Part shown: in pieces, positions 12,773-34,016 of the stretch
Numbering within the stretch: position 1 is the first letter of the stretch
Layout: every line of letters begins with the position of its first letter
Source of the DNA: Trypanosoma brucei
Taxonomy: Eukaryota
Reading direction: 5' to 3'
NCBI GenBank assembly: GCA_000002445.1
Contig: CP000071.1
Location: forward strand, 1,184,001 to 1,248,000
DNA length: 64,000 nucleotides
Translations under genes and position numbers: made by a program
The notes under the pieces: generated by a model
Database searches by the model: none
Told to the model about the DNA's origin: nothing
What the model saw: the letters and a program-made list of their open reading frames with translations, nothing else

Positions 12773-14413
12773 TCACTCGAACGCCGGCAACCGTACAAAG
12801 GCGAACTTTACGTTGTACGGGCTTACCACCATCAGGAAAAGAAGTACGATAGCTACCGCACCAAGAAGTGCGGAGGAAACGATACCACCGAGACACACAC
12901 CGTCGCATCTAGATAGACGTGAGTCATCTCCGCATACGGACTCAGCTAAGGTAATGTGCTGGCAATCATCCACACACTTCACCATGCAGAGCGGCAACAG
13001 GTGACTCCACTGCTCTTGCTGCGACACTTCTTCAAGGAACATCCGGGTCCACGTCCATGGAGACGAGAACAGCCGCTTCTGCGCACGTCCCTTGCTCATG
13101 CCGGGGGGGCCCCTGTAGTTGGTAATAAGGATGGTATTCTCAAGGTTCATCATTGCAGTAAGGTTTGTCCACGTCGAAACATTTGTACCACCAGGCACGT
13201 TAATCTCACCGGGTGGAAGGAACACAGCATAGAAGTCCTCTGTACGAAAGGCTACCTCCACATCTTTTATAATCCATGAATACAGGGCGTGCATGAGCCG
13301 ATCATTTCCCATTGGGAACGAGGAAGCGCGAAAGGCGGCCACAGCTGTGGATCTCGGAGGTGACCCGGGCGTTGGCGTGGGAGTCACCGGCGGTAGTGGT
13401 GTTGGTGAATAGCATTTCTCACGGACGGCGTACACAGCTGTTTCGGTTATGGCATAATATTCACATCCATTCACCTTAACCAGTGAGACAATCGGCCCAT
13501 GCATCCACTCCATCACCTTCTTAGGGCACAACAGACCGGTTTCAGAGGAATTCAATTCAAGGGACATGATATGGCTCTCGCCGTTAGGTTCACCGTAATA
13601 ATAGAGCTCATTCTCGTCCTCAGTTAACATCAAGGCATCGACATAATCGAGACAACTCATATTGGCGATGTCCCAGCTCTTCTTGTTACCATCCGAATCG
13701 CTGAGGCTATTCAGGTCCACCGCTGCAATCCACGAGGTCTCCTTCACGACATACATGAAATTCCGCTTCTTGCTTATTTGCATCACACCAGGTTGAAAAC
13801 CTCCAACAAGTTTCGCCGTTACATTGTTGGACACACTTATCTGCGAGTACATAATCCTTGAATTTCCAGTATCCGAAATAAATAAAACCGGTGCCCCGTC
13901 TTGTTCATGATAAATAATACTACTCGGTTTATCAACTTCATTGGCCGCAAACTTCGTCACCATTCCATCAGCATCTATCCGCTTCATGCAATCATTATCC
14001 CTGTCCGCCACGTAAATATCATTGTTTACACCAACAACAGAGGTGGGATGATTAAAACGAGCAACCTCTAAAGGACCAACTTCGTCACCACGCTTTGCAA
14101 GATTTCCCGCAACGGTATATATGCCAGTTTTGTTTACGAGTCGCACGGTGGATCCACCACCTCCAACATCACATAAAAGTAAAGGAAAGCTTTTGTTCTT
14201 AAAGAACCCACCCACCGCCTTGAATAAGCGACCAGTACCGTTTATGCCATCCGCCTGCCCACTACTACAGTTGATACAACTGTTGAAGAGGTTCACAATC
14301 ACCTTGGTGCCCACGGTTTGGTCTCCTATAACGGGACTCACAAAACCCAGCAGCAGCAACAACGCTGCCACGAGTGCGGCCAATGCTTCCCGTGATTCAG
14401 TCCTGCCACCCAT
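12773..14413 (-). CDS. FLA1: Flagellum adhesion glycoprotein FLA1-like. 546 aa, with a signal peptide, an NHL-repeat beta-propeller ectodomain, many N-glycosylation sequons and a C-terminal TM helix. It lacks the 44-aa Pro-rich insert.
   Basis: The ATG was verified. The N-terminus MGGRTESREALAALVAALLLLLGFVSPVIG is signal-peptide-like. An NHL-type repeat is present (GIYTVAG...FNHPTSVVGVNNDIYVADRDNDCMKRID). The C-terminal TM is LLGAVAIVLLFLMVV. The 546-aa length, against the 590-aa paralogue, matches the published FLA1/FLA2 relationship. Confidence 0.75.
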   Translation of the reverse strand: MGGRTESREALAALVAALLLLLGFVSPVIGDQTVGTKVIVNLFNSCINCSSGQADGINGTGRLFKAVGGFFKNKSFPLLLCDVGGGGSTVRLVNKTGIYTVAGNLAKRGDEVGPLEVARFNHPTSVVGVNNDIYVADRDNDCMKRIDADGMVTKFAANEVDKPSSIIYHEQDGAPVLFISDTGNSRIMYSQISVSNNVTAKLVGGFQPGVMQISKKRNFMYVVKETSWIAAVDLNSLSDSDGNKKSWDIANMSCLDYVDALMLTEDENELYYYGEPNGESHIMSLELNSSETGLLCPKKVMEWMHGPIVSLVKVNGCEYYAITETAVYAVREKCYSPTPLPPVTPTPTPGSPPRSTAVAAFRASSFPMGNDRLMHALYSWIIKDVEVAFRTEDFYAVFLPPGEINVPGGTNVSTWTNLTAMMNLENTILITNYRGPPGMSKGRAQKRLFSSPWTWTRMFLEEVSQQEQWSHLLPLCMVKCVDDCQHITLAESVCGDDSRLSRCDGVCLGGIVSSALLGAVAIVLLFLMVVSPYNVKFAFVRLPAFE

Positions 14414-16840: not shown

Positions 16841-18361
16841 TTAACCGGTGTCGTTGGTCGACACAGCCATTAGTTCCCTCAGGCGCTCTCTATATTCCTG
16901 TGCTACAACCCCATCCAGAGCAACTGTTATTCCGGCTGTGTTGCCACACTTCTGCTGCTGTTCTGCAAGCAGGATGCTGTAAACACTCTGCAATTCAGGA
17001 AGAGAACCCGCCGCCCGTAGACGCGCCACGTCTCGGTACGAGCGAAACATTCCTGCGGTACGTGCTTCACACACCACGCGTCTGCAAATATTTGGCAGAG
17101 CATCCAGTTCCCGCCCCCAGAACCGCGCGTCTGACCCAGCAGCGGCCACATTCCGAAAGAACTCCAAACCCGTCAGTCGCTCGATTTCTACCACAGGCAC
17201 CTGGTAAGCTGTGAGGGGCCGCTCCACGGCAATCGGTTCGTTCGGCATTAGGAAGGCAGCAGCTTCATGTGCCCCGTCCGCTCGCTCACCTAATATAACT
17301 TTGAAGAGGTGTGTGGGGACCGCAACGTCGCGCTTGCCCACAAGCTCATAGCAGACAATCTTCCGCAAGTGCACTGCTGCCTTGTCATTTCCACAGTGGC
17401 AGTGTTCTCCAGAAGCCAACACTCCGCTACTCACAGGTTTTACTGGAGACGGACATTGCGATGGTTCCGCCCACCGCCACGTGCGCACATCACCATCCAC
17501 GAGCCGCGGGTGGAAGACAGGTCCCGTCACTACCCACAATCCCCTCTCATAATACCGCCGCAACTTCCGTGTGAGGTTTTCCAACCGCAGCCAGTCGACA
17601 GCATTCATTGTCATGTCCTGTGGTACAGTGTTCGCATTCATGTTAAAGGTCTGAGCCAACTCAACAGTAGAGCTCTTGTGAAACTGTGCGGCAGCAAGGT
17701 GACCTCGGCTGAGGCCTCGTGAGTGCTGTCCCCTGCCACCCCCAATATAGTCACCGGGCTGCACGCGGAACAACTGAGGCACCGTCATGTCCGCAAAGAA
17801 CCTCATTCCATCTCGCTGGGCTTCCGCTGCGGAAGCGTTTACTAAGTCGTTATCAGCCGTGACCACTGAATCAGCAGCAGTGGTCCTGCCGGGGATGTAC
17901 TCCAACACCCAATTAGGGATACGACGCTCATAATTCAGACTAGAAACAAAGCCTTTGTAGTAGCGCAGGTGATCGTCGGACGGAAGCCCCTTGCTTGTAA
18001 GTCTTAGCACGAAAGGAGTAGTTTCCCCACCATCGTCGTTACACCTCTCCTTGGGGTATGCGGGCTGTGGGCATTGCACGTGTAACACCTCCGGACTTGT
18101 GCGCTCAGTCATCTGTTGATACGGAACAGGCGATGGATGGCATTTGTCCACACCAAACCAACCACCACGCTCCACAACCATTCCTATCGCGCCTCCCGCC
18201 AGCGCCGTACCAAGGAAGGCAAAGGCACGTCCCACGGAGGAAGCAGAAACCGCCATCGTATGCTTCTTCCTGCAGTTGATGCCACAAAGTGTAATAGAAG
18301 GAGTAAGTGGGATGACAGTGCACGTATCAGTGGGCATGAGCCGTACGGTGATGCGATGCAT
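16841..18361 (-). CDS. EndoG: Endonuclease G-like DNA/RNA non-specific nuclease (beta-beta-alpha-Me family) with an N-terminal hydrophobic anchor/presequence. Unit copy 1.
   Basis: The active-site block LSRGHLAAAQFH corresponds to the metazoan FDRGHLAAAANH. MNANTVPQDMTMNAVDWLRLENLTRKL corresponds to the EndoG region LSNVAPQVPHLNQNAWNNLEKYSRSL. VVTGPVFHP corresponds to VCTGPLFLP. VAVPTHLFKVILGE...FLMPNEPI corresponds to IAVPTHFFKVLILE...YVMPNAPV. The N-terminal hydrophobic stretch is FAFLGTALAGGAIGMVV. Confidence 0.85.
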   Translation of the reverse strand: MHRITVRLMPTDTCTVIPLTPSITLCGINCRKKHTMAVSASSVGRAFAFLGTALAGGAIGMVVERGGWFGVDKCHPSPVPYQQMTERTSPEVLHVQCPQPAYPKERCNDDGGETTPFVLRLTSKGLPSDDHLRYYKGFVSSLNYERRIPNWVLEYIPGRTTAADSVVTADNDLVNASAAEAQRDGMRFFADMTVPQLFRVQPGDYIGGGRGQHSRGLSRGHLAAAQFHKSSTVELAQTFNMNANTVPQDMTMNAVDWLRLENLTRKLRRYYERGLWVVTGPVFHPRLVDGDVRTWRWAEPSQCPSPVKPVSSGVLASGEHCHCGNDKAAVHLRKIVCYELVGKRDVAVPTHLFKVILGERADGAHEAAAFLMPNEPIAVERPLTAYQVPVVEIERLTGLEFFRNVAAAGSDARFWGRELDALPNICRRVVCEARTAGMFRSYRDVARLRAAGSLPELQSVYSILLAEQQQKCGNTAGITVALDGVVAQEYRERLRELMAVSTNDTG

Positions 18362-19332
18362 TTTACGTATCGCTATGAGGTCCTTCCGTCCACATGACGA
18401 ATACAGCTACAAATGATCTTGCACTACAGCGGGTGGTATTAACGATAAGGTTACATCAGCTTCAGCACACTTTGCTTCTGCTTTTAACCCTAGACTTATC
18501 TAATCCCTGCCGCCCACGCAGTTGCATAATTAAATAGAAGATAATAAGGGAGAATGAAAATGAATGAAGATGGGAAAATACGGTGAAGGAACACAAAGGG
18601 CACTATAGCAGTATAGGAGCACGCCACAAGAAGATGTGCTCGGACAAGCGGATGGATCACCAACAAGATAGGGGACCTTCGGAGGGTTTCACAGTTGGAG
18701 TCAGCATGGACTCACCTCAAAGGAAGACAAATAAGGGAAAAGAATAGAAAAAATAAAATTACGTTCCCCTGTGGCACAACGACGGCAAGCGTCGGGGTAC
18801 CTGAAGCTGTACAGGCGTGCTCGCTGTAGCGACCGCACAGTCTTGTATTGTGCACTGCTTCACTGTAACATGATAGTTCATACCCCAATATATGTTGCCT
18901 ACAACCTTGTCCCCTACACACTCAGATGACACCGCACCAGTGGCATGCGGAACCGTAGTGGTAGGAGGCGGCAACCCAGGAACCTCCAGCAGCTGAAAAT
19001 ATAATTTTGATGGAGAGATCTCTAGATAGAGCCGGCGTCTATGTATAAACATGCCGGCTGCACTGAGGCCGGCGTAGGGTAACCCCAGAGCCGATGCCAA
19101 CAACAACAAAAAAAAGAAATAACGACCGATCAATAACGATAAGAATGATAATGGTGGAAATACATGTACATGTACGGGAGCACATGAATAACTAGTGAAT
19201 AGCGAAAATAGCGATCAGTTGAGTTACTGAGACCTTTCCACCCTGCTCTCACTCAGTTACTGCAAGCACGTGTTGCATGGGAGTGGAAGGACAGTAAGAC
19301 ATTGCGCATGTTTGTGTGATAGTCTAGGAAAT

Positions 19333-21585
19333 TCACTGCTCGACCCTTTCTTTGTTGCCGTAGGCAGATGCGTAATCTTGCTCATCCTCATCCAGTGTAC
19401 TCACGAATTTCGGACGAGCGGGTGCGACTACGGCGGCAAGGCGTCTGCGTTTCGATGTGAACACGACAGCTAACACGATGAGGACGGCTACGATAAGTGC
19501 ACACACTACCGCGATTATGATTAGGCACACGCGACCGCACTTTGGCGCCTTCTCTGTGGTGGGTCTGACGGTATCGTTGTTCAGGTGGTCGTTCAAGTCT
19601 TGCCAGTCAATCTCACCGACGCATTCCGACACATCGAACGTATAGTTTCCAGGAATGAATACTTCGTACAGACTCATCTCAACGTAGGGTGGCTGGTAAA
19701 AAAGCGATACCGTGCGGTTCGTTATCGTGGACTGGCATACTCCAGTTACATTGCTATCAAGTGCCGTGGCAATGGTGGTTCGGCTATGGTCACCAACCTC
19801 TTCCCTACGTGCCATGCTTCTCCCGGTGCTACGTTCTTCACATTTCTTTATTTGATTCATCACCTCGTCGTGTATGTACCAGCGTACTTCCTGTTCCTCA
19901 TCCGGAGTCAGTGATGAGAAGTTGAACGGGGGATTGGAGAAGGTTACATCGACGTGAGTGTCCGAGCTCCGCAAGTATTTGATGAATGAGTGGGCAGTCT
20001 CAGTGAGGTTCGCATCTGACAGCAAGTCGTGGGTCACGGTGTTGTTGAACGAGGCTGGCATCAGTAGCTTCACTGTTGTGATATTTTCAGCGTCACTGCT
20101 CTCAGCCTTAAGGGGCATGTCCGCGTAGATGAGCGTGAAATTGAGTACCTCACCCGCCTCCTTTGCGAGCTTCCGACGGAGAGCATCAAGACTCAGGCGA
20201 TTGCAATATGGGACCATTGTGCTGTCCATGTACACCTGTTCGTCAGTAAGGTTGTAGTACTCATCCGCAGCCTCCTTTGTGTGTTCATAGTTACTCTCGT
20301 GCAAGGCCTGTTCGGTTTTCTCGTCATCAAAGTCCGGCTGTTGCACACCGGCGGTGAAATTCGTTAGCCATGTTGTGGAGTCCACATGTACGGAAGAAGA
20401 GGCAACAATACTTTCGGTGGTGCCGAGCGCAGTGTTGATGTCCTCAGTGAGGTTCCCCACAATCCACTCCATGATGTCTTTATCAGGGTATCCAACTGGT
20501 AACGGGCGCCCGGGGAAGAGACCCTGCACGTACACTGGTGGAAGTGTCACAGAACGCAGGACACTTTTCTTTTCCGATGTAACATACATTTCGTACTCCG
20601 TCACCACGAGCAATCGGGTTATCTCACAAAGAAGCGTGTCATCTCCCTCAGTATTGGGAAGACACGAGTTCGTGCTTCCTCCGGCGAATCGTTTCGTCGT
20701 AAGTTTATTACCGTCGGTCGAAACGCGGTGTAACTCATTTTGTGTTGCCGCGAGTAGATCACCAGACCGTGTGCTGGTAATGTCCACATATTCACCATCC
20801 ACCTCTGCGATCTTGTGGCCCTGCAGGTCGAACCAGCAGATGGTGCCCTGCTTCGCGGGGCCGCGAGCAACAACAAAGATGCCCTGCTGCGTGGCGGCAA
20901 TGCCGATGGGACCATAGATACTGCAGTTTGCACTCAGAGCCACGTGGCTGTGACATGCGATTGGGTCACCGTCGCTTCCCACTTCACACGTCCATACAGT
21001 ATTTGTGTTTTGCTCTGTCAGATACAGGTGGTTCCCGTACAAAGCTACGCCTGTCAGCGAGCCATTGCGGACTACGTCATGAGAGAAGACACCGCTGTCC
21101 TTGAAATACTTCACCTCACCCATACTCTCAACAAAGTAAACAAATGTGGAGCCACCAACTGTCCACTGCACGCAGGCGCGCGGTTTGTCAACTTTGACAC
21201 TACGCGACCCGCTTTTCTGATCCTCGTCTGTCTCCCATGCCGTGATTGTAGTGGTCTCACGGTTCTTGCGCGAGAAGGCACGGAAGCGGTCAACTGTCCC
21301 CAAAAGGATCTCGTCACTATTCCTGCCTCTGCACATAGCGTGGGGTGACGATAATTCCGACATGCCAGGGAACCCGTCCTTATCACCAATATGACCGTAC
21401 TTGCCAGCGACGGTGGTCACATGGCGCTTCAGTTCAATGGGAGCGGCTCCACTTCTCACTACAATCGTTGCGACGGTGGCCACGAGCAAAAGCATCTGGG
21501 ATACGTAACCTAAGTGCACGGTTCCTACTACTTCCCTCACATTCATTGTTTCCACCTCACAGTTGGTTTGTTTCCACAACGGCAT
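19333..21585 (-). CDS. FLA1BP: FLA1-binding-protein-like NHL-repeat type-I membrane glycoprotein. It is about 750 aa from the first ATG; the track ORF is 752 aa from a TTG. Unit copy 1.
   Basis: An N-terminal hydrophobic signal or anchor is present (LLLVATVATIVV). NHL-like repeats are present (TVAGKYGHIGDKDGFPGMSELSSPHAM...). There are more than 15 NxS/T sequons and a C-terminal TM CLIIIAVVCALIVAVLIVLAVVF followed by a basic cytoplasmic tail. Length and position, adjacent to FLA2 and EndoG, match FLA1BP as I recall it. Confidence 0.7.
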   Translation of the reverse strand: MPLWKQTNCEVETMNVREVVGTVHLGYVSQMLLLVATVATIVVRSGAAPIELKRHVTTVAGKYGHIGDKDGFPGMSELSSPHAMCRGRNSDEILLGTVDRFRAFSRKNRETTTITAWETDEDQKSGSRSVKVDKPRACVQWTVGGSTFVYFVESMGEVKYFKDSGVFSHDVVRNGSLTGVALYGNHLYLTEQNTNTVWTCEVGSDGDPIACHSHVALSANCSIYGPIGIAATQQGIFVVARGPAKQGTICWFDLQGHKIAEVDGEYVDITSTRSGDLLAATQNELHRVSTDGNKLTTKRFAGGSTNSCLPNTEGDDTLLCEITRLLVVTEYEMYVTSEKKSVLRSVTLPPVYVQGLFPGRPLPVGYPDKDIMEWIVGNLTEDINTALGTTESIVASSSVHVDSTTWLTNFTAGVQQPDFDDEKTEQALHESNYEHTKEAADEYYNLTDEQVYMDSTMVPYCNRLSLDALRRKLAKEAGEVLNFTLIYADMPLKAESSDAENITTVKLLMPASFNNTVTHDLLSDANLTETAHSFIKYLRSSDTHVDVTFSNPPFNFSSLTPDEEQEVRWYIHDEVMNQIKKCEERSTGRSMARREEVGDHSRTTIATALDSNVTGVCQSTITNRTVSLFYQPPYVEMSLYEVFIPGNYTFDVSECVGEIDWQDLNDHLNNDTVRPTTEKAPKCGRVCLIIIAVVCALIVAVLIVLAVVFTSKRRRLAAVVAPARPKFVSTLDEDEQDYASAYGNKERVEQ

Positions 21586-22257: not shown

Positions 22258-24030
22258 CTACTCCAGCGCCGGCAGTCGCACAAAAGTAGATCTTGCATTC
22301 GGTGGACTTGCTATGAGCAACCACAGCAGCATGATGGCAAGAAGGCCCAAGAGCACTGAGGAGGCGATTCCTGCAGCACGCAGGTCCTCATGCACCTGGA
22401 ACTGAAGCTCGTCTACACACAGAGATTCATTGAAGGAAATGTACTGACAATCATCCACACACTTCACCATGCAGAATGGTGATAGGTGATCCCACTCCTC
22501 TTGTCGTACCAATTCATCAAGAAACTTCCGTGTCCAGTTCCATGGAGACGAGAACAACCGCTTCTGTAGTTCTTGCTTGCTCCTACCAGGAGGCCCTTGG
22601 TAGTTGGTAATAAGGATGTTCTTGTCGAAGTTCTCTAGAGCTGTCAAGTTTGTCCACGTCGAAACATTTGTACCACCAGGCACGTCATTGTAACCTGGGG
22701 GGAGGAAAACAGCAAAAAAGTCATCTGTGCCGAAAGCGATCTCAACATCCCTCATAATCCACGAATACAGAGCATGCATAAGTTTTACATCATCAATTGG
22801 GAACGAAGAAGCGCGAAAGGCGGCAACAGCTGTGGGTCTCGGAGGTGAAGGGGGATCCGGATTGGGAGTAATCGGCGGCGGCGGCGGCGGCGGTGGTGGT
22901 GGTGGCGGTGGCGGTGGCGGCTGCACTGATGGTGATGGTGACGGCGATGCTGATGGGCTGGGAGAAGGTGATGGCGGCACCGAAGGCGTGGGAGGGGGCG
23001 TTGGTGGAGGCGTTGGCGTCGGTGTATAGCCTACATCACGAATGGCATACACGGCCGTTTCTGTTGTAGCATAATACTCTTTGTCATTCACCCTCAACAA
23101 TGAGACAATCCGATCATAGTCCCATTTCAACATTGACTGCGCACACCATTGGGATGCTGGAGATGGGCGTTCCACCTCTAGTGACATGATGTACCCCTCT
23201 CCATTGGGCTCACCGTAATAATATAGTTTATCCTCTGCTTGAGTCAGCATCAGAGCACTTTTGTAGTGCAGACACGTCACATCACCTATATCCTTACTTT
23301 TTCCAATATCAGACTCCCCAGTTTTGCTCAAATTAACCGCTGCAATCCATGAGGTGTTTTTTACGACATACATCATGTTCTTTTCTTTGCTTATTTGCAT
23401 CACACCAGGTTGGAAGCCAGCGACTAGTGTAGTTACCACTGTGTTATTAGCATCCAGTGGCACATAAAGGATCTGCGAATTGCCTGTGTCGGAAATGAAT
23501 AGATTCTGAGTCCCGTTCAATGTGAATGGGAGAATATCCTTCGGTTTGTTAAGGTCTTGTGGTCCATATCTGGTTACATTGCCCTCAGCATCTATTCGCC
23601 TAATACAGTTGTTATCCCTGTCTGCCACGTAAATATCATCGTTGACGCTTACAACTGAGGTGGGATTGTTGAATAGTGCATCTCCCTTGGGGCCGTCTTT
23701 ATTACCACGTTGCGTCAGACTGCCTGCAATTGTATATATGCCAGTTTTGTTTACGAGTCGCACGGTGGATCCACCACCTTCGATATCACATAAAAGTAAA
23801 GGAAAACGCTTCTTTTGGAAGAAACCACCAGACGCCTTGAAAAGTTTTCCCTTTGCACTTTCGCCATCCGCCTGCCCAACAGTACAAGTAGTACAACTGT
23901 TGAAGAGGTTCACAATCACCTTGGTGCCCACGGTTTGGTCTCCTATAACGGGACTCACAAAACCCAGCAGCAGCAACAACGCTGCCACGAGTGCGGCCAA
24001 TGCTTCCCGTGATTCAGTCCTGCCACCCAT
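22258..24030 (-). CDS. FLA2: Flagellum adhesion glycoprotein FLA2-like. 590 aa. It is the FLA1 paralogue with a 44-aa Pro-rich insertion between the propeller and the membrane-proximal domain. Unit copy 2.
   Basis: The ATG was verified. It shares the signal peptide and NHL repeats with the 546-aa protein. The extra stalk reads TPTPTPPPTPPPTPSVPPSPSPSPSASPSPSPSVQPPPPPPPPPPPPPPPPITPNPDPPSPP. The C-terminal TM is LLGLLAIMLLWLLIA. Confidence 0.75.
   Translation of the reverse strand: MGGRTESREALAALVAALLLLLGFVSPVIGDQTVGTKVIVNLFNSCTTCTVGQADGESAKGKLFKASGGFFQKKRFPLLLCDIEGGGSTVRLVNKTGIYTIAGSLTQRGNKDGPKGDALFNNPTSVVSVNDDIYVADRDNNCIRRIDAEGNVTRYGPQDLNKPKDILPFTLNGTQNLFISDTGNSQILYVPLDANNTVVTTLVAGFQPGVMQISKEKNMMYVVKNTSWIAAVNLSKTGESDIGKSKDIGDVTCLHYKSALMLTQAEDKLYYYGEPNGEGYIMSLEVERPSPASQWCAQSMLKWDYDRIVSLLRVNDKEYYATTETAVYAIRDVGYTPTPTPPPTPPPTPSVPPSPSPSPSASPSPSPSVQPPPPPPPPPPPPPPPPITPNPDPPSPPRPTAVAAFRASSFPIDDVKLMHALYSWIMRDVEIAFGTDDFFAVFLPPGYNDVPGGTNVSTWTNLTALENFDKNILITNYQGPPGRSKQELQKRLFSSPWNWTRKFLDELVRQEEWDHLSPFCMVKCVDDCQYISFNESLCVDELQFQVHEDLRAAGIASSVLLGLLAIMLLWLLIASPPNARSTFVRLPALE
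22874..22918. repeat. GGN trinucleotide repeat, (GGC/GGT)15, encoding the poly-Pro run of FLA2 on the minus strand.
   Basis: The sequence reads ggcggcggcggcggcggtggtggtggtggcggtggcggtggcggc. An identical copy lies at 32492-32536. It is absent from the 546-aa paralogue. Confidence 0.85.
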
Positions 24031-24217
24031 TCCTGTTGCTCCACACTGTGATTCTATCAGTCAGTCGCTATATGTATATATATATATATATGTATATACC
24101 CCACGGATCTACCGTTGGGAAACAAACCTCAACCACAAAAGCGACCTATTAGCTCTGCTCAGTGAACTCACAACTCCCTTTAGTTGTCTTGTGATGATAT
24201 TATTATTCACACATCAG

Positions 24218-24323
24218 AACAAAGGAAAACAAAGGAAGCCAAAGGAAGACAAAAGAGGAGAAAGGAATCCGACACGTGAGAGAGAACAACAGTGGACGCA
24301 GACAGACGAAAGAAAAACACAGA
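24218..24323 (-). promoter_or_regulatory. Polypyrimidine tract, the trans-splice signal upstream of FLA2 (copy 2).
   Basis: This is the same purine-rich plus-strand block as at 14600-14705, shifted by 9618 bp. Confidence 0.4.
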
Positions 24324-24401
24324 TGCATTGAAGCCACGCATTTAGGGTTGGGGAAACATATTCAGAGTTTGAAAGCCACGCTTCACTCCTTCGTATTTTG
24401 A

Positions 24402-25130
24402 CTAAGGCAACGCAGACCCGCCACCCGCCGGTCCCTTACCAATGTGGAGGAAATTGCAGTACTTCCCACGCCTGCAGCCCTCCCGAGTGAGGAAGAAAGT
24501 ACATACCCTGCCATATGTTGCATTTCCCACGTGGCGCTCATTTCGACGGATCTGTGAGAGGCGGTAATCCTCAGAAGAGGATGCTGCACTGGTTGGGAGC
24601 AGTGGGGAACCTGCAGGGGATGGCAGTGGTGTAGCCATGTTCTGTTGATGAGCAGAGTTTCGACCACCCGCCACAACCCCTATTCCCTGTGACGGAGGGG
24701 CATGTGGTAGTGATGAGGATGCGGTACCCCCCGCACATCCGTAAGGCGGTGTGGTGCCAGTAGCGCTGTTGTGTGGCAGGGGGCACTCCCTCATACGTCC
24801 TTCGGCATTAGCGTCCCGCGGACGACCTGAGGCTACTTGGAGTTCTATAGAGAAGGGGTCGGGGCAGTTAACGCCACAGTGTCCGTTTATGGCTGAATAG
24901 AATTCCATAAGTGCCTGATGCGCTACGTGTGTCGGTGGGCGCAGCGAGAGGACGTTAGGTGTAGCAACGGACAACACTTTCTCCGATGATAGCGGTTGGT
25001 ACGGCGAGTTCTGAATCTTGCGCACGAGGCACACTGCCGATGGGGCTGCATGCTCCACAATGTAGTTCACCATCGCTCTCGTTGTGAGTTGCTGGGTAGT
25101 TGACGTTGCTTCCGCAGACGAGATGGTCAT
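24402..25130 (-). CDS. CCCH zinc-finger protein, 242 aa, unit copy 2. Identical to copy 1.
   Basis: The protein is identical to that of 14784..15512. Confidence 0.65.
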   Translation of the reverse strand: MTISSAEATSTTQQLTTRAMVNYIVEHAAPSAVCLVRKIQNSPYQPLSSEKVLSVATPNVLSLRPPTHVAHQALMEFYSAINGHCGVNCPDPFSIELQVASGRPRDANAEGRMRECPLPHNSATGTTPPYGCAGGTASSSLPHAPPSQGIGVVAGGRNSAHQQNMATPLPSPAGSPLLPTSAASSSEDYRLSQIRRNERHVGNATYGRVCTFFLTREGCRRGKYCNFLHIGKGPAGGGSALP

Positions 25131-25364
25131 TCAACTGCACGCGTATATACCCCCCACCCGTGCGGTTTTACAATGTTTCCGGGAGAAGAAATGAGGCTAC
25201 CTTACCTTGGGATATTCACCCACACAAACGGAAATTATCAACGATCCTACCTGCTTCGGGGTGGTTCTTCACATGCATCTGAACAAACCAACAACCAGTA
25301 GCAGCACAGCAACAATGTACAACAAGTATACAATCACACCATCCCTCTTACATAGATTCTCCTT

Positions 25365-26063
25365 TTAGTCTTCCTCATCCTCTTTCCCTTCGTAACACAC
25401 CTCACTTTCCTCCACTTCCTCATCGCTACTTTCCGATTCAACACCCGAAAAACATTGCCGCCGCAGATTCAAAACCCCACGCGAGTAGTACGTTGCCATT
25501 CTTTCCACAGGAAGACTTAGGAAGTCCTGCACGCATGACGCTCTGTGCTCTTGCATGAATGCTATCACGGCCCACAGTTCAGCCATAGCCCAGATGTCAC
25601 TACGGAGGGGACTCTTCTTTTCTGCTTCACCATCCTTTGCAGCGATCGCCACGTGGTCAGTCTTGCTATTATTGTTAGCATGTGACATAGCCCCAGCAAG
25701 ACACATGTGCTCACCAACGAACTTCACTAGCCTATAGTTATGATTGGGATGCACCGTAACGTTTCCAGTGTTGGGACATGGTAGCAATAGGATAGGGGTC
25801 TCCTCATCCGTTATGTCCTGCAGCAACACACCCGCTTGTCCAAGTAGTTGCCGAAGGTTCAGGGACGGTGCGGCAGAGGGCACCTGAGTTACCCTCCCAT
25901 TAATGCGGATAACAAAGTGCGCCTCCTCATCGGTTCCACACTCCTTAGATCGGCCGCGCTTGCGAGTTCCCTTAACCACTTCTTGACCCGCCAATCGTGT
26001 CATGACCTCTACCAATACCTTTAGTGATTGATCAACGGGGGAGAAAATCTTAGATAAGCACAT
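25365..26063 (-). CDS. Hypothetical acidic-tailed protein, about 232 aa, unit copy 2.
   Basis: The protein is identical to copy 1. The ATG at 26063-26061 was verified, and the track start at 26078 is a TTG. Confidence 0.55.
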   Translation of the reverse strand: MCLSKIFSPVDQSLKVLVEVMTRLAGQEVVKGTRKRGRSKECGTDEEAHFVIRINGRVTQVPSAAPSLNLRQLLGQAGVLLQDITDEETPILLLPCPNTGNVTVHPNHNYRLVKFVGEHMCLAGAMSHANNNSKTDHVAIAAKDGEAEKKSPLRSDIWAMAELWAVIAFMQEHRASCVQDFLSLPVERMATYYSRGVLNLRRQCFSGVESESSDEEVEESEVCYEGKEDEED

Positions 26064-26458
26064 ATGGATGGCGCGCAACTGAAGTTGGGATGGCGGCTCG
26101 ACTGATGCAACGTGACGACCAATCTTATCCTAGTCAGAGTGACGTGGTGTAGGTATGGTGAGGCCACTGCAGTCGGAACGCTGAGAGTGTTCAGCACTAA
26201 AAACATTTCACGGGAGGATCCCTAAACTGACACAGCAACTGTTCATATGTCCACTACACGATGAACCAGGGATACCATCGCGGAGGTGTAATTTAATCCA
26301 CAGACACTGCGGGAGGTATTGCTGGGGTTAGATCTCGAATAGTGCTACAGGCACTCAACAATTGCCGGACACAAAAGACTAATGGACACACACACCGCTT
26401 TCTTTGCCTAAAGTGCAGCCCTGGAAAGTTACAAATAAGGAATGACAGGTACCGTGAG

Positions 26459-27979
26459 TTAACCGGTGTCGTTGGTCGACACAACCATTAGTTCCCTCAG
26501 GCGCTCTCTATATTCCTGTGCTACAACCCCATCCAGAGCAACTGTTATTCCGGCTGTGTTGCCACACTTCTGCTGCTGTTCTGCAAGCAGGATGCTGTAA
26601 ACACTCTGCAATTCAGGAAGAGAACCCGCCGCCCGTAGACGCGCCACGTCTCGGTACGAGCGAAACATTCCTGCGGTACGTGCTTCACACACCACGCGTC
26701 TGCAAATATTTGGCAGAGCATCCAGTTCCCGCCCCCAGAACCGCGCGTCTGACCCAGCAGCGGCCACATTCCGAAAGAACTCCAAACCCGTCAGTCGCTC
26801 GATTTCTACCACAGGCACCTGGTAAGCTGTGAGGGGCCGCTCCACGGCAATCGGTTCGTTCGGCATTAGGAAGGCAGCAGCTTCATGTGCCCCGTCCGCT
26901 CGCTCACCTAATATAACTTTGAAGAGGTGTGTGGGGACCGCAACGTCGCGCTTGCCCACAAGCTCATAGCAGACAATCTTCCGCAAGTGCACTGCTGCCT
27001 TGTCATTTCCACAGTGGCAGTGTTCTCCAGAAGCCAACACTCCGCTACTCACAGGTTTTACTGGAGACGGACATTGCGATGGTTCCGCCCACCGCCACGT
27101 GCGCACATCACCATCCACGAGCCGCGGGTGGAAGACAGGTCCCGTCACTACCCACAATCCCCTCTCATAATACCGCCGCAACTTCCGTGTGAGGTTTTCC
27201 AACCGCAGCCAGTCGACAGCATTCATTGTCATGTCCTGTGGTACAGTGTTCGCATTCATGTTAAAGGTCTGAGCCAACTCAACAGTAGAGCTCTTGTGAA
27301 ACTGTGCGGCAGCAAGGTGACCTCGGCTGAGGCCTCGTGAGTGCTGTCCCCTGCCACCCCCAATATAGTCACCGGGCTGCACGCGGAACAACTGAGGCAC
27401 CGTCATGTCCGCAAAGAACCTCATTCCATCTCGCTGGGCTTCCGCTGCGGAAGCGTTTACTAAGTCGTTATCAGCCGTGACCACTGAATCAGCAGCAGTG
27501 GTCCTGCCGGGGATGTACTCCAACACCCAATTAGGGATACGACGCTCATAATTCAGACTAGAAACAAAGCCTTTGTAGTAGCGCAGGTGATCGTCGGACG
27601 GAAGCCCCTTGCTTGTAAGTCTTAGCACGAAAGGAGTAGTTTCCCCACCATCGTCGTTACACCTCTCCTTGGGGTATGCGGGCTGTGGGCATTGCACGTG
27701 TAACACCTCCGGACTTGTGCGCTCAGTCATCTGTTGATACGGAACAGGCGATGGATGGCATTTGTCCACACCAAACCAACCACCACGCTCCACAACCATT
27801 CCTATCGCGCCTCCCGCCAGCGCCGTACCAAGGAAGGCAAAGGCACGTCCCACGGAGGAAGCAGAAACCGCCATCGTATGCTTCTTCCTGCAGTTGATGC
27901 CACAAAGTGTAATAGAAGGAGTAAGTGGGATGACAGTGCACGTATCAGTGGGCATGAGCCGTACGGTGATGCGATGCAT
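26459..27979 (-). CDS. EndoG: Endonuclease G-like nuclease, unit copy 2.
   Basis: It differs from copy 1 by one residue (ELMVVSTNDTG versus ELMAVSTNDTG). Confidence 0.85.
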   Translation of the reverse strand: MHRITVRLMPTDTCTVIPLTPSITLCGINCRKKHTMAVSASSVGRAFAFLGTALAGGAIGMVVERGGWFGVDKCHPSPVPYQQMTERTSPEVLHVQCPQPAYPKERCNDDGGETTPFVLRLTSKGLPSDDHLRYYKGFVSSLNYERRIPNWVLEYIPGRTTAADSVVTADNDLVNASAAEAQRDGMRFFADMTVPQLFRVQPGDYIGGGRGQHSRGLSRGHLAAAQFHKSSTVELAQTFNMNANTVPQDMTMNAVDWLRLENLTRKLRRYYERGLWVVTGPVFHPRLVDGDVRTWRWAEPSQCPSPVKPVSSGVLASGEHCHCGNDKAAVHLRKIVCYELVGKRDVAVPTHLFKVILGERADGAHEAAAFLMPNEPIAVERPLTAYQVPVVEIERLTGLEFFRNVAAAGSDARFWGRELDALPNICRRVVCEARTAGMFRSYRDVARLRAAGSLPELQSVYSILLAEQQQKCGNTAGITVALDGVVAQEYRERLRELMVVSTNDTG

Positions 27980-28950
27980 TTTACGTATCGCTATGAGGTC
28001 CTTCCGTCCACATGACGAATACAGCTACAAATGATCTTGCACTACAGCGGGTGGTATTAACGATAAGGTTACATCAGCTTCAGCACACTTTGCTTCTGCT
28101 TTTAACCCTAGACTTATCTAATCCCTGCCGCCCACGCAGTTGCATAATTAAATAGAAGATAATAAGGGAGAATGAAAATGAATGAAGATGGGAAAATACG
28201 GTGAAGGAACACAAAGGGCACTATAGCAGTATAGGAGCACGCCACAAGAAGATGTGCTCGGACAAGCGGATGGATCACCAACAAGATAGGGGACCTTCGG
28301 AGGGTTTCACAGTTGGAGTCAGCATGGACTCACCTCAAAGGAAGACAAATAAGGGAAAAGAATAGAAAAAATAAAATTACGTTCCCCTGTGGCACAACGA
28401 CGGCAAGCGTCGGGGTACCTGAAGCTGTACAGGCGTGCTCGCTGTAGCGACCGCGCAGTCTTGTATTGTGCACTGCTTCACTGTAACATGATAGTTCATA
28501 CCCCAATATATGTTGCCTACAACCTTGTCCCCTACACACTCAGATGACACCGCACCAGTGGCATGCGGAACCGTAGTGGTAGGAGGCGGCAACCCAGGAA
28601 CCTCCAGCAGCTGAAAATATAATTTTGATGGAGAGATCTCTAGATAGAGCCGGCGTCTATGTATAAACATGCCGGCTGCACTGAGGCCGGCGTAGGGTAA
28701 CCCCAGAGCCGATGCCAACAACAACAAAAAAAAGAAATAACGACCGATCAATAACGATAAGAATGATAATGGTGGAAATACATGTACATGTACGGGAGCA
28801 CATGAATAACTAGTGAATAGCGAAAATAGCGATCAGTTGAGTTACTGAGACCTTTCCACCCTGCTCTCACTCAGTTACTGCAAGCACGTGTTGCATGGGA
28901 GTGGAAGGACAGTAAGACATTGCGCATGTTTGTGTGATAGTCTAGGAAAT

Positions 28951-31203: not shown

Positions 31204-31875
31204 GCGCAATCGAGAAATTACAGTGGGGTCACTAGCCTCTGCCTTACCTAACGCGAAAGGATCCAGTGTTCTGTTAACTTCCTCTAATTACCTGCCCTCA
31301 GAGAGAGGCCGGCTACAATTCCTTATATGGCACCCCAGAAGCGCGGCACAAGAGTCGCGGGCAACGAAGACGCAAAAAAGAAGGAAAGGGATAGACAAAG
31401 AATAGGTACGCGAAGAGACTTTTGGTCATTGGAACGCCAAAACTCGTATGTAATGTATACAGGTGACTGTTCACGCAGAACCTGCAAATGTTGCTTCCAA
31501 CTCTACGGTCTCTTCTAAAACGATGCAGCTGCAAAATCAAAAGTGCCTTTTAAAACATATTGCGTAGCAAATTTTTTTTTCTTTGGGGGGGGGAGGTAGT
31601 GGAGGGAAAACATTTTAAATGGGTATACCTATTCTATCACTTACGTAATCACACGCTTTTTCTTACTGTCATAAATACGTATTTTCTGCACAAAAAGATT
31701 TGTTTCCTCACCCAAAATGAGCAAGGTGTAGCCATCACATGACGACCAGAAACGCACACCCACCCAACTCTAACCTCATGCGAAGTAGTCGCAGAGGTTG
31801 CCTCTCACTATTCCCCACCGGCTGTCACCTCCATTACGTATCCATGAGTGACTCCGAAGTCACTTGCAGCTCCAA

Positions 31876-33648
31876 CTACTCCAGCGCCGGCAGTCGCACA
31901 AAAGTAGATCTTGCATTCGGTGGACTTGCTATGAGCAACCACAGCAGCATGATGGCAAGAAGGCCCAAGAGCACTGAGGAGGCGATTCCTGCAGCACGCA
32001 GGTCCTCATGCACCTGGAACTGAAGCTCGTCTACACACAGAGATTCATTGAAGGAAATGTACTGACAATCATCCACACACTTCACCATGCAGAATGGTGA
32101 TAGGTGATCCCACTCCTCTTGTCGTACCAATTCATCAAGAAACTTCCGTGTCCAGTTCCATGGAGACGAGAACAACCGCTTCTGTAGTTCTTGCTTGCTC
32201 CTACCAGGAGGCCCTTGGTAGTTGGTAATAAGGATGTTCTTGTCGAAGTTCTCTAGAGCTGTCAAGTTTGTCCACGTCGAAACATTTGTACCACCAGGCA
32301 CGTCATTGTAACCTGGGGGGAGGAAAACAGCAAAAAAGTCATCTGTGCCGAAAGCGATCTCAACATCCCTCATAATCCACGAATACAGAGCATGCATAAG
32401 TTTTACATCATCAATTGGGAACGAAGAAGCGCGAAAGGCGGCAACAGCTGTGGGTCTCGGAGGTGAAGGGGGATCCGGATTGGGAGTAATCGGCGGCGGC
32501 GGCGGCGGCGGTGGTGGTGGTGGCGGTGGCGGTGGCGGCTGCACTGATGGTGATGGTGACGGCGATGCTGATGGGCTGGGAGAAGGTGATGGCGGCACCG
32601 AAGGCGTGGGAGGGGGCGTTGGTGGAGGCGTTGGCGTCGGTGTATAGCCTACATCACGAATGGCATACACGGCCGTTTCTGTTGTAGCATAATACTCTTT
32701 GTCATTCACCCTCAACAATGAGACAATCCGATCATAGTCCCATTTCAACATTGACTGCGCACACCATTGGGATGCTGGAGATGGGCGTTCCACCTCTAGT
32801 GACATGATGTACCCCTCTCCATTGGGCTCACCGTAATAATATAGTTTATCCTCTGCTTGAGTCAGCATCAGAGCACTTTTGTAGTGCAGACACGTCACAT
32901 CACCTATATCCTTACTTTTTCCAATATCAGACTCCCCAGTTTTGCTCAAATTAACCGCTGCAATCCATGAGGTGTTTTTTACGACATACATCATGTTCTT
33001 TTCTTTGCTTATTTGCATCACACCAGGTTGGAAGCCAGCGACTAGTGTAGTTACCACTGTGTTATTAGCATCCAGTGGCACATAAAGGATCTGCGAATTG
33101 CCTGTGTCGGAAATGAATAGATTCTGAGTCCCGTTCAATGTGAATGGGAGAATATCCTTCGGTTTGTTAAGGTCTTGTGGTCCATATCTGGTTACATTGC
33201 CCTCAGCATCTATTCGCCTAATACAGTTGTTATCCCTGTCTGCCACGTAAATATCATCGTTGACGCTTACAACTGAGGTGGGATTGTTGAATAGTGCATC
33301 TCCCTTGGGGCCGTCTTTATTACCACGTTGCGTCAGACTGCCTGCAATTGTATATATGCCAGTTTTGTTTACGAGTCGCACGGTGGATCCACCACCTCCA
33401 ACATCACATAAAAGTAAAGGAAAGCTTTTGTTCTTAAAGAACCCACCCACCGCCTTGAATAAGCGACCAGTACCGTTTATGCCATCCGCCTGCCCACTAC
33501 TACAGTTGATACAACTGTTGAAGAGGTTCACAATCACCTTGGTGCCCACGGTTTGGTCTCCTATAACGGGACTCACAAAACCCAGCAGCAGCAACAACGC
33601 TGCCACGAGTGCGGCCAATGCTTCCCGTGATTCAGTCCTGCCACCCAT
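31876..33648 (-). CDS. FLA2: FLA2-like 590-aa glycoprotein, unit copy 3. It is mosaic: residues about 47-95 are of FLA1 type.
   Basis: The body of the protein, including the Pro-rich insert, is identical to 22258..24030. The segment NSCINCSSGQADGINGTGRLFKAVGGFFKNKSFPLLLCDVGGGGSTVRLV is identical to the 546-aa paralogue and differs from copy 2 (NSCTTCTVGQADGESAKGKLFKASGGFFQKKRFPLLLCDIEGGGSTVRLV). Confidence 0.75.
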   Translation of the reverse strand: MGGRTESREALAALVAALLLLLGFVSPVIGDQTVGTKVIVNLFNSCINCSSGQADGINGTGRLFKAVGGFFKNKSFPLLLCDVGGGGSTVRLVNKTGIYTIAGSLTQRGNKDGPKGDALFNNPTSVVSVNDDIYVADRDNNCIRRIDAEGNVTRYGPQDLNKPKDILPFTLNGTQNLFISDTGNSQILYVPLDANNTVVTTLVAGFQPGVMQISKEKNMMYVVKNTSWIAAVNLSKTGESDIGKSKDIGDVTCLHYKSALMLTQAEDKLYYYGEPNGEGYIMSLEVERPSPASQWCAQSMLKWDYDRIVSLLRVNDKEYYATTETAVYAIRDVGYTPTPTPPPTPPPTPSVPPSPSPSPSASPSPSPSVQPPPPPPPPPPPPPPPPITPNPDPPSPPRPTAVAAFRASSFPIDDVKLMHALYSWIMRDVEIAFGTDDFFAVFLPPGYNDVPGGTNVSTWTNLTALENFDKNILITNYQGPPGRSKQELQKRLFSSPWNWTRKFLDELVRQEEWDHLSPFCMVKCVDDCQYISFNESLCVDELQFQVHEDLRAAGIASSVLLGLLAIMLLWLLIASPPNARSTFVRLPALE

Positions 33649-33832
33649 TCCTGTTGCTCCACACTGTGATTCTATCAGTCAGTCGCTATATGTATATATA
33701 TATATATATATATACCCCACGGATCTACCGTTGGGAAACAAACCTCAACCACAAAAGCGACCCATTAGCTCTGCTCAGTGAACTCACAACTCCCTTTAGT
33801 TGTCTTGTGATGATATTATTATTCACACATCA

Positions 33833-33938
33833 GAACAAAGAAAACAAAGGAAGCCAAAGGAAGACAAAAGAGGAGAAAGGAATCCGACACGTGAGAGAGA
33901 ACAACAGTGGACGCAGACAGACGAAAGAAAAACACAGA
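33833..33938 (-). promoter_or_regulatory. Polypyrimidine tract, the trans-splice signal upstream of FLA2 (copy 3).
   Basis: This is the same block as at 14600-14705 and 24218-24323. Confidence 0.4.
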
Positions 33939-34016
33939 TGCATTGAAGCCACGCATTTAGGGTTGGGGAAACATATTCAGAGTTTGAAAGCCACGCTTCA
34001 CTCCTTCGTATTTTGA

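What the first reader, a model, noticed from the sequence alone, without database searches (positions are those of the whole stretch)
22854..23052. The 44-aa proline-rich stalk of FLA2 is encoded by a pure GGN trinucleotide repeat and is the main FLA1/FLA2 difference
The insert, (PT)n(PS)n followed by 17 consecutive Pro, is encoded on the plus strand by (GGC/GGT)15 plus flanking GGN-rich sequence. This is a slippage-prone repeat inside an essential surface-protein gene. The insert length is therefore expected to be polymorphic between strains and could tune the spacing of the ectodomain from the membrane in the flagellum attachment zone. It also creates a G-rich template strand (quadruplex-prone) within a transcribed gene.
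Basis: partly seen in the sequence, partly recalled or inferred. Interest (0 to 1): 0.5.

Follow-up and report, generated by a model that had tools for sequence, protein, structure and literature searches.

The report
FLA2 proline-rich linker, slippage-prone repeat
This is the known proline-rich spacer of the trypanosome flagellum-adhesion protein FLA2: part of it is a short triplet repeat that differs by two codons between subspecies, which is ordinary coding-microsatellite behaviour with no shown functional effect.

Summary
The window is Trypanosoma brucei brucei TREU927 chromosome 8, the FLA1/FLA2/FLA1BP locus. The flagged stretch encodes residues 327-393 of FLA2 (590 aa, minus strand).

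- FLA2 carries 44 extra residues relative to FLA1, at a Pro/Thr/Ser-rich segment.
- Only 16 of those codons, not 17, form a triplet array: (CCG/CCA)16 at 22873-22920. The rest is a degenerate hexamer array and a 12-mer array.
- The insert is the only large indel, but FLA1 and FLA2 are only 64% identical.

The segment is an interdomain linker, not a membrane-proximal stalk. It joins the NHL beta-propeller to a further extracellular domain of about 125-150 residues.

The length-polymorphism prediction holds, but only just. TREU927 (both copies) and T. equiperdum OVI have Pro16. T. b. gambiense DAL972 and T. b. equiperdum IVM-t1 have Pro14. That is two clean haplotypes.

Relatives all have a low-complexity linker of 11-66 residues here. 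FLA1 has the shortest in the genus Trypanosoma. The "insert" is therefore partly a shortening in FLA1 plus a FLA2-specific Pro expansion.

There is no canonical G-quadruplex motif.

The gene and its insertion are already published, so interest is low.

The parts
22258..24030 (-). FLA2 copy A coding sequence (590 aa; Tb927.8.4060 by position in the TREU927 locus): signal peptide, NHL beta-propeller, Pro-rich linker, second extracellular domain, TM helix, short tail
   Evidence: ORF and translation. Pfam NHL hit at residues 120-144, E 1.1e-6. AlphaFold model: strands 38-331, linker 333-395 with pLDDT<50, second domain 400-520, helix 542-574. Family hits: FLA1, T. congolense, T. vivax and others.
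22840..23025 (-). Whole Pro/Thr/Ser-rich interdomain linker of FLA2-A (residues 336-397; 39 Pro, 10 Ser, 6 Thr of 62)
   Evidence: Codon table, linker extraction from alignment A1, no secondary structure and pLDDT 33-41 in the model.
22873..22920 (-). Triplet array encoding Pro16 (residues 371-386): (CCG CCA)2 CCG (CCA)4 (CCG)7 on the coding strand, (GGY)n on the plus strand. This is the part that varies in length between genomes.
   Evidence: 0 of 100 shuffles. Alleles of 16 and 14 codons in other Trypanozoon genomes.
22927..22956 (-). Degenerate hexamer array (plus-strand TGATGG x5) encoding the (SP)n part, residues ~359-368
   Evidence: TRF period 6, 5.0 copies, 75% matches; codons.
22984..23016 (-). 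Degenerate 12-mer array (plus-strand AGGCGTTGGAGG x2.8) encoding the TPPP/TPTP part, residues ~339-349
   Evidence: TRF period 12, 2.8 copies, 80% matches. One extra unit in the doubtful second IVM-t1 copy.
31876..33648 (-). FLA2 copy B (590 aa; Tb927.8.4110, also called FLA3 or FLA2-2). Its linker is identical to copy A. Residues 47-84 are FLA1-like.
32491..32538 (-). The same Pro16 triplet array in FLA2 copy B
12773..14413 (-). FLA1 (546 aa), the procyclic paralogue used for comparison. Its linker is only 18 residues (336-353, about 13355-13408).
   Evidence: Exact match to TREU927 Q581C1 / XP_847232; alignment.

Best explanation
The region encodes the low-complexity interdomain linker of FLA2, the bloodstream-stage flagellum-adhesion glycoprotein of T. 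brucei.

At the DNA level the linker is a patchwork of three short tandem arrays: a 12-mer, a 6-mer and a 3-mer.

The youngest array is the triplet array (CCG/CCA)16. It grew by replication slippage and still changes length in frame, with 16 or 14 codons in different Trypanozoon lineages.

At the protein level the linker is an extended, probably polyproline-II-like and possibly glycosylated spacer. It holds the N-terminal NHL beta-propeller, which binds the FLABP partner on the flagellar membrane, away from the membrane-proximal domain.

Its exact length appears to be under weak constraint. The 44-residue difference from FLA1 combines a shortened linker in FLA1 with a FLA2-specific Pro expansion.

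Shown: the anatomy, the slippage signature, the polymorphism and the variability across the family. Inferred: the spacer role and the weak constraint.
For: - Anatomy and frame.
- Domain position of the linker.
- Slippage signature: only CCG and CCA are used in the run, against mixed usage elsewhere (P about 4e-5).
- Length alleles: 16 codons in TREU927 (both copies) and OVI; 14 codons in DAL972 and IVM-t1. This is the only indel in the CDS between the two haplotypes, against 8 SNPs in the other 1725 nt. Two events in 48 nt where 0.22 are expected gives P about 0.02.
- Family survey: every relative has a low-complexity linker at this junction, 11-66 residues. In Trypanosoma the values are 41-66, except FLA1 (22) and one T. 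congolense paralogue (34).
- T. congolense linker DNA is also built from short arrays.
- FLA2 rescues loss of FLA1 in procyclic cells, so linker length is not critical for binding FLA1BP (PMC12831198).
- In T. cruzi gp72 the equivalent hydroxyamino-acid/Pro-rich domain is the presumed carrier of the phosphoglycans (PMC3630849).
Against: - Only two independent clean haplotypes could be compared. OVI is identical to TREU927 across the CDS, and DAL972 is identical to IVM-t1.
- No population data were available.
- The spacer geometry is inferred. The AlphaFold linker has pLDDT<50, and no measurement of the FLA2 ectodomain exists in what I could read.
- In both species with duplicated FLA genes, one paralogue has a long linker with a Pro run and the other a short one. 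That hints that length may be selected rather than weakly constrained.
Confidence: 0.75

Rival explanations
1. Stage-specific ruler. The long Pro-rich linker of FLA2 is selected so that the propeller reaches across two VSG coats in bloodstream forms. The short FLA1 linker suits the procyclin coat. Repeat slippage supplies the length variation on which selection acts.
For: - FLA2 is bloodstream-specific and FLA1 procyclic-specific (PMC12831198; PMC4827413).
- 44 extra residues could add up to about 13-14 nm if fully extended at 0.31 nm per residue (established polyproline-II geometry).
- T. brucei and T. congolense, the only species reported with duplicated FLA, each have one long linker with a Pro run and one short one: 66 vs 22 and 56 vs 34 residues, Pro16 and Pro8. 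Yet the T. congolense paralogues cluster together in domain trees, so the long/short split may have arisen twice.
- The authors of PMC12831198 propose that each pairing is 'tuned' to its coat.
Against: - FLA2 works in procyclin-coated cells, with 99% attachment.
- Single-copy species that also carry VSG-like coats or mucin coats have intermediate or equally long linkers, for example T. vivax at 66.
- Stage expression of the T. congolense paralogues was not checked here.
- The within-species change is only 2 residues.
Confidence: 0.2
2. DNA-level role. The G-rich template strand forms quadruplex or CGG-hairpin structures that modulate RNA polymerase II passage, replication or recombination within the tandem FLA array.
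For: - This is the longest GG-doublet array in the 64-kb window: 47 nt, 16 GG tracts with 1-nt loops.
- The plus-strand ssDNA folds into a slipped CGG hairpin at -16.4 kcal/mol, z = -3.45 against shuffles.
Against: - No canonical G3+N1-7 motif occurs in or near the region, even with loops up to 12 nt.
- The hairpin is one of many registers. Its ensemble frequency is 0.07 and the centroid is unstructured.
- The mRNA is less structured than shuffles, z = +2.16.
- The composition is fully explained by Pro codons in frame.
Confidence: 0.04
3. The length difference between genomes is an assembly or sequencing artefact, and the tract is really invariant.
For: - The second IVM-t1 copy is frameshifted, with 19 gap openings against TREU927, and shows an implausible Pro4. 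So at least one assembly is error-prone in this array.
- OVI has an N-gap artefact in the same gene.
Against: - The Pro14 allele has exactly the same codon order in two assemblies listed under different accessions and names, DAL972 (GCA_000210295.1) and IVM-t1 (GCA_003543875.1). It sits in otherwise intact 588-aa ORFs and is linked to the same 8 flanking SNPs.
- The Pro16 allele is seen in three gene copies.
Confidence: 0.05

Closest known systems
T. brucei FLA2 (Tb927.8.4060 / Tb927.8.4110) as described by LaCount, Barrett & Donelson 2002 (J Biol Chem 277:17580)
   Same: Same gene. From my own memory of the abstract, which I could not retrieve here, it is a bloodstream-stage FLA1 relative of about 60% identity with a 44-amino-acid proline-rich insertion. 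The ~60-65% identity and stage specificity are confirmed in papers I could read (PMC3546053; PMC4827413; PMC12831198).
   Different: Nothing differs in the object itself. The additions here are the DNA-level dissection into three arrays, the 16 vs 14 codon alleles, and the outgroup comparison showing FLA1 has the unusually short linker.
T. cruzi gp72 and other trypanosomatid FLA/GP72 proteins
   Same: Same architecture: NHL propeller, Thr/Pro-rich low-complexity linker at the same junction, conserved Cys-containing C-terminal domain, TM helix. In gp72 the hydroxyamino-acid/Pro-rich domain is the presumed site of phosphoglycan attachment (PMC3630849).
   Different: Other Trypanosoma species use (TP)n-type linkers with Pro runs of at most 2. 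The exception is one T. congolense paralogue with Pro8. FLA2 is the only one with a homopolymeric Pro16 and an (SP)n block. T. brucei cannot make the gp72 sugars.
Coding trinucleotide microsatellites (homo-amino-acid tracts that vary by slippage, such as polyPro or polyGln tracts in eukaryotic proteins)
   Same: Pure codon blocks, in-frame length change of whole codons between lineages, location in a disordered linker.
   Different: Short (longest perfect block is 7 units) and only a two-codon difference observed. No evidence of hypermutability or of phenotype.
Pro-rich rod-like spacers of trypanosome surface proteins (EP/GPEET procyclin repeats)
   Same: Extended Pro-rich repetitive segment in a surface glycoprotein of the same organism, encoded by short tandem DNA repeats (own knowledge; procyclins named in PMC12831198).
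   Different: Procyclin repeats are dipeptide or pentapeptide Glu-Pro units forming the bulk of a GPI-anchored coat protein. Here the repeat is a linker between two folded domains of a transmembrane adhesion protein.

Membership tests
FLA/GP72 flagellum-adhesion glycoprotein family | Full-length sequence homology to FLA1/GP72 relatives | tested here: met
   FLA1 E 1e-228, T. congolense 6e-222, T. vivax 5e-169, T. rangeli, T. grayi and others; 64% identity to FLA1.
FLA/GP72 flagellum-adhesion glycoprotein family | Extracellular NHL-repeat beta-propeller after a signal peptide | tested here: met
   Pfam NHL, 28.8 bits, above the 20-bit cutoff. All-beta region 38-331 with pLDDT up to 92. The fragment search hits bacterial NHL propellers.
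FLA/GP72 flagellum-adhesion glycoprotein family | Single C-terminal TM helix and short cytoplasmic tail | tested here: met
   Predicted helix 542-574, followed by about 15 residues. The literature describes a 16-aa tail in FLA1 (PMC10675206).
FLA/GP72 flagellum-adhesion glycoprotein family | Genomic linkage to an FLA-binding-protein gene | tested here: met
   A 750-aa FLA1BP ORF lies immediately downstream of each FLA2 copy (19333-21585, 28951-31203). It is an exact match to the TREU927 proteins at Tb927.8.4050/4100 (Table 1 of PMC4827413).
FLA/GP72 flagellum-adhesion glycoprotein family | [quoted passage not shown] | not testable with these tools
   Literature only. FLA2 rescues FLA1 RNAi (PMC12831198). 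FLA2 localisation is listed as 'not done' in PMC4827413.
Slippage-prone coding trinucleotide microsatellite | Uninterrupted tandem triplets, far beyond chance | tested here: met
   16 GGY/CCR units, with perfect blocks (CCG)7 and (CCA)4. 0 of 100 shuffles match.
Slippage-prone coding trinucleotide microsatellite | Codon homogeneity inconsistent with independent substitutions | tested here: met
   0 of 16 codons are CCC or CCT, against 22 of 47 elsewhere in the gene; P about 4e-5. A run of 7 or more given the observed codon mix is not itself significant (P = 0.07).
Slippage-prone coding trinucleotide microsatellite | In-frame length polymorphism between isolates | tested here: met
   16 vs 14 codons in two haplotypes across four genomes. 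Sampling is minimal. A third value (4) comes from a frameshifted, unreliable copy.
Canonical G-quadruplex-forming sequence | Four tracts of at least 3 G separated by loops of 1-7 nt | tested here: not met
   No hit in or near the region on either strand, nor with loops up to 12 nt. Only GG doublets are present.
Canonical G-quadruplex-forming sequence | Experimental G4 signal (G4-seq, CD, polymerase stop) | not testable with these tools
   No such data were accessible.

The most novel reading that the evidence does not exclude
Linker length in FLA proteins may be a selected 'ruler' matched to the thickness of the stage-specific surface coat. It would be generated by expansion and contraction of short coding repeats. 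It may have evolved in parallel in T. brucei (66 vs 22 residues) and T. congolense (56 vs 34). In both species the long paralogue has acquired a homopolymeric Pro run.
Probability: 0.15. Interest if true: 0.5.

Novelty: already known. Interest (0 to 1): 0.2.

Why it matters
FLA2 is part of the only protein pair known to bridge the gap between the flagellar and cell-body membranes in bloodstream trypanosomes. The geometry of its ectodomain therefore bears on how attachment is kept while the surface coat changes.

The results here do three things:
- They correct the picture of the linker. It is an interdomain linker, not a membrane stalk, and only a third of the insert is a triplet repeat.
- They show that the FLA1/FLA2 length difference is as much a shortening in FLA1 as an insertion in FLA2.
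- They give a simple marker, Pro16 vs Pro14, that separates two Trypanozoon haplotypes.

None of this changes current understanding. The observed two-residue polymorphism is too small to be expected to matter.

Tried and rejected
- Protein database searches for FLA2 orthologues:
  - The full-length search returned FLA1 and other species but no FLA2 from any T. brucei strain.
  - The exact FLA2 sequences are not in the collection.
  - Two searches with the 251-255-aa propeller fragment returned nothing, or only bacterial NHL proteins of at most 440 aa. This looks like a length bound in candidate selection. Both searches were wasted.
- Exact-product look-ups for TREU927 FLA1, FLA2 and FLA1BP found no contigs. 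Other strains were reached only indirectly, through cluster members of neighbouring genes.
- The T. equiperdum OVI contig carrying the ZC3H24-like 242-aa gene was too short (1.6 kb) to reach FLA2.
- Identity of the two TREU927 copies is not evidence of stability. The 9.6-kb tandem units are about 99.9% identical outside two 5' patches, so the comparison has almost no power.
- LaCount 2002 is not held in the library, and no held paper quotes the '44-amino acid' wording. That attribution rests on my memory.
- The supplements of PMC12831198 are too small to contain the Lister 427 FLA2 sequence. The stated 99.7% identity to Tb927.8.4060 cannot decide the tract length in strain 427.
- The representative-library search mostly returned giant multi-NHL proteins.
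- I considered a cytoplasmic Pro-rich ligand role (SH3, WW or profilin binding) and rejected it. The segment lies between the signal peptide and the TM helix, so it is extracellular.
Full report
**What the window is.** The 546-aa ORF at 12773-14413 (minus strand) is an exact match to FLA1 of T. brucei brucei TREU927 (XP_847232 / Q581C1). The neighbouring 242-aa, 506-aa (endonuclease G), 750-aa (FLA1BP) and 415-aa ORFs are exact matches to TREU927 proteins on the 2.48-Mb chromosome record. Published tables place FLA1 (Tb927.8.4010), FLA1BP (Tb927.8.4050 and 4100), FLA2 (Tb927.8.4060) and FLA3/FLA2-2 (Tb927.8.4110) in this order (PMC4827413). The window holds a tandem unit of about 9.6 kb: 13961-25446 matches 23577-35061 at 98.96% identity. 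All long ORFs lie on the minus strand.

**Checking the observation.**
- The flagged stretch 22854-23052 lies in frame in the 590-aa ORF 22258-24030 and covers codons 327-393.
- The peptide is VYAIRDVGY-TPTPTPPPTPPPTPSVPPSPSPSPSASPSPSPSVQ-P16-ITPNPDP.
- The Pro run has 16 residues (371-386; 22873-22920), not 17.
- Its codons are (CCG CCA)2 CCG (CCA)4 (CCG)7. On the plus strand this reads as GGC/GGT units.
- TRF reports 22873-22921, period 3, 16.3 copies, and the same array at 32491-32539.
- The 47-nt (GGY)15GG pattern occurs only at these two places. It occurred in none of 100 dinucleotide-preserving shuffles.
- The rest of the Pro-rich segment is not a triplet repeat. At a lower TRF threshold it resolves into a degenerate hexamer array (TGATGG x5, 22927-22956, encoding SPSPSP) and a degenerate 12-mer array (x2.8, 22984-23016, encoding TPPP units), with mixed Pro, Ser and Thr codons.
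- So "pure GGN repeat" holds for 16 of the 44 codons.

**FLA1 versus FLA2.**
- Global alignment gives 351 identities in 545 aligned positions (64%), one 44-residue gap and two single-residue gaps.
- The insert is therefore the only large indel. It is not "the main difference" in any other sense, because there are about 194 substitutions.
- The position of the gap inside the low-complexity sequence is ambiguous. The protein alignment places it at residues 351-394. The DNA alignment favours 343-386, with the Pro16 run at its 3' edge.

**Where the segment sits in the protein.**
- Pfam finds an NHL repeat at residues 120-144.
- An AlphaFold2 model built on the family alignment has an all-beta domain at 38-331 (pLDDT up to 92). 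A segment without structure follows at 333-395 (pLDDT 33-41). Then come a mixed alpha/beta domain at about 400-520 and a long helix at 542-574.
- The Pro-rich segment is thus an interdomain linker between the propeller and a second extracellular domain. It is not a stalk rising directly from the membrane.
- The model is of moderate quality (mean pLDDT 64). I use it only for domain boundaries.

**Signature of slippage.**
- Outside the run, FLA2 uses all four Pro codons: CCA 17, CCC 11, CCT 11, CCG 8.
- Inside the run only CCG (10) and CCA (6) occur. The chance of no CCC or CCT in 16 draws is about 4e-5.
- The codons are arranged in blocks. This fits growth by duplication of CCG, CCA and CCGCCA units.
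- A block of 7 given the observed 10:6 mix is not itself significant (P = 0.07).

**Is the length polymorphic?** Within the window the two FLA2 copies carry the same tract. However, the tandem units differ at only about 6 positions and 4 small indels outside two 5' patches, so this comparison has no power. I reached other genomes through cluster members of neighbouring genes. The results were:

| Genome | FLA2 gene | Pro run |
|---|---|---|
| T. b. brucei TREU927, copies A and B | 590 aa | 16 codons, (CCG CCA)2 CCG (CCA)4 (CCG)7 |
| T. equiperdum OVI | identical to TREU927 copy A, apart from an inserted block with a run of N (a scaffolding artefact) | 16 codons, same order |
| T. b. gambiense DAL972 | 588 aa | 14 codons, CCG CCA CCG (CCA)5 (CCG)6 |
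| T. b. equiperdum IVM-t1, first copy | 588 aa, 100% identical in DNA to DAL972 | 14 codons, same order as DAL972 |

- There are thus two independent clean haplotypes.
- They differ by 8 substitutions in 1725 nt outside the tract.
- Inside the 48-nt tract they differ by a 6-nt length change plus one third-position change. Equivalently, this is two separate 3-nt changes.
- The tract holds the only indel in the gene. Two events where 0.22 are expected gives P of about 0.02.
- A second IVM-t1 copy (L005 17144-18891) is frameshifted, with 19 gap openings against TREU927. It shows Pro4 and one extra 12-mer unit. I cannot tell a decayed copy from long-read assembly error, so I do not count it.
Two residues are about 0.6 nm of polyproline-II helix (0.31 nm per residue, established geometry).

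**Comparison across the family.**
- In an alignment of 18 FLA-like proteins, every one has a low-complexity linker at the same junction. The linker is counted from the invariant end of the propeller to the invariant Arg (R398 in FLA2).
- Linker lengths:

| Protein | Linker (residues) | Note |
|---|---|---|
| FLA2 | 66 | Pro16 run |
| FLA1 | 22 | |
| T. congolense, long paralogue | 56 | Pro8 run |
| T. congolense, short paralogue | 34 | |
| T. vivax | 66 | |
| T. rangeli | 51 | |
| T. conorhini | 41 | |
| T. grayi | 47 | |
| T. melophagium | 52 | |
| Nine more distant unnamed representatives | 11-52 | Ser/Gly/Thr-rich rather than Thr/Pro-rich |

- Within Trypanosoma, FLA1 has the shortest linker. 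FLA2 without its Pro16 would have 50 residues, inside the usual range.
- The 44-residue difference is therefore best read as a shortening in FLA1 combined with a FLA2-specific Pro expansion, rather than a simple insertion in FLA2.
- The T. congolense linker DNA also resolves into weak arrays of period 6, 6 and 9. The T. vivax linker shows only a 12-mer x2.3.

**Function.**
- In T. cruzi gp72 the equivalent hydroxyamino-acid/Pro-rich domain is the presumed carrier of the phosphoglycans. The glycans of Fla1 and Fla2 must differ, because T. brucei lacks Xyl, Rha and Galf (PMC3630849).
- FLA2 and FLA2BP are the bloodstream pair, and FLA1 and FLA1BP the procyclic pair.
- FLA2 expressed in procyclic cells restores attachment after FLA1 RNAi in 99% of cells. 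The authors speak of possible "tuning" of each pair to its coat, without addressing the linker (PMC12831198).
- This shows that the long linker is compatible with binding FLA1BP under a procyclin coat. It argues against a strict length requirement but does not exclude an optimum in bloodstream forms.
- T. brucei and T. congolense are the only species reported to have duplicated FLA genes. Each has one long paralogue with a Pro run and one short one, although the T. congolense paralogues cluster together in trees of both folded domains. This is the one observation that keeps the "ruler" idea alive. I give it about 0.15-0.2.

**The DNA-structure claim.**
- The strand assignment is right. The gene is on the minus strand, so the G-rich plus strand is the template.
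- There is no canonical quadruplex motif (four G3+ tracts) in or near the region, even with loops up to 12 nt. The tract offers only GG doublets with one-base loops, though it is the longest such array in the window.
- As single-stranded DNA, the plus strand can form slipped CGG hairpins: -16.4 kcal/mol, z = -3.45. No register dominates, and the centroid is unstructured.
- The mRNA segment folds less well than shuffled sequence, z = +2.16.
- The composition follows directly from in-frame Pro codons. I see no evidence for a DNA-level function.

**Novelty.**
- FLA2 and its proline-rich 44-residue insertion were described in 2002 by LaCount, Barrett and Donelson. I cite this from memory, because the paper is not held.
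- Papers I could read confirm the gene, its ~60-65% identity to FLA1 and its stage specificity.
- The additions here are minor: the three-array anatomy, the Pro16/Pro14 alleles and the outgroup polarity.
- Verdict: a real, correctly located feature; already known; an ordinary coding microsatellite in a low-complexity linker. The functional speculation is untested and, for the observed two-residue polymorphism, implausible.

Noticed in passing
window 13961-14413, 23577-24030, 33195-33648 (5' ends of FLA1, FLA2-A, FLA2-B): The 5' ends of the three FLA genes are mosaic. CDS nt 1-139 are identical in all three. At nt 140-251 FLA2-B equals FLA1 exactly, while FLA2-A differs at 35 positions (15 aa, residues 47-84). 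From nt 300 on, the two FLA2 copies are identical and diverge from FLA1. This looks like gene-conversion tracts entering the genes from the shared upstream repeat unit.
   Followed up: partly
window 13961-35061: The tandem ~9.6-kb units (242-aa ZC3H24-like gene, 237-aa ORF, endonuclease G, FLA1BP, FLA) are about 99.9% identical outside the 5' FLA patches. One (TA)n microsatellite near 24091 / 33709 differs by one unit between the units.
   Followed up: partly
window 10971-12224 vs 18171-19425 and 27789-29043: A third, truncated copy (99.5-99.6% identical) of the FLA1BP-3' / endonuclease-G-5' segment lies downstream of FLA1. It marks the end of the tandem array.
   Followed up: no
L003 and L007 (T. 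b. gambiense DAL972 chr 8) vs window: Gene order differs between assemblies. DAL972 has FLA1 first, then fragments of endonuclease G (105 aa) and FLA1BP (600 aa), then a single FLA2 and FLA1BP. TREU927 has FLA2-B, FLA2-A, then FLA1. This is either real structural variation in the array or misassembly of the repeats.
   Followed up: no
L005 17144-18891 (T. b. equiperdum IVM-t1): A second FLA2-like copy is broken into 233-aa and 349-aa ORFs, with 19 gap openings against TREU927 FLA2. It has a Pro4 run, an extra 12-nt unit and several Ser-to-Pro changes in the linker. It may be a pseudogene or a long-read consensus error.
   Followed up: partly
L006 68-2044 (T. equiperdum OVI): The gene called as 654 aa is FLA2 with a 204-nt block inserted at CDS nt 122. 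The block contains a run of N and repeats the 5' region, once FLA1-like and once FLA2-A-like. It is a scaffolding artefact that merges the two 5' variants.
   Followed up: partly
L001 (T. congolense IL3000) and proteins P0002 / P0003: The two T. congolense FLA paralogues are 95% identical in the C-terminal domain and 79% in the propeller. Their linkers share the first 19 residues, then diverge into a long Pro8-containing version (56 residues) and a short one (34).
   Followed up: partly
tool behaviour: The TREU927 FLA2 proteins are absent from the protein collection although all their neighbours are present. Fragment queries of about 250 aa returned only hits of at most 440 aa and missed FLA1.
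   Followed up: no
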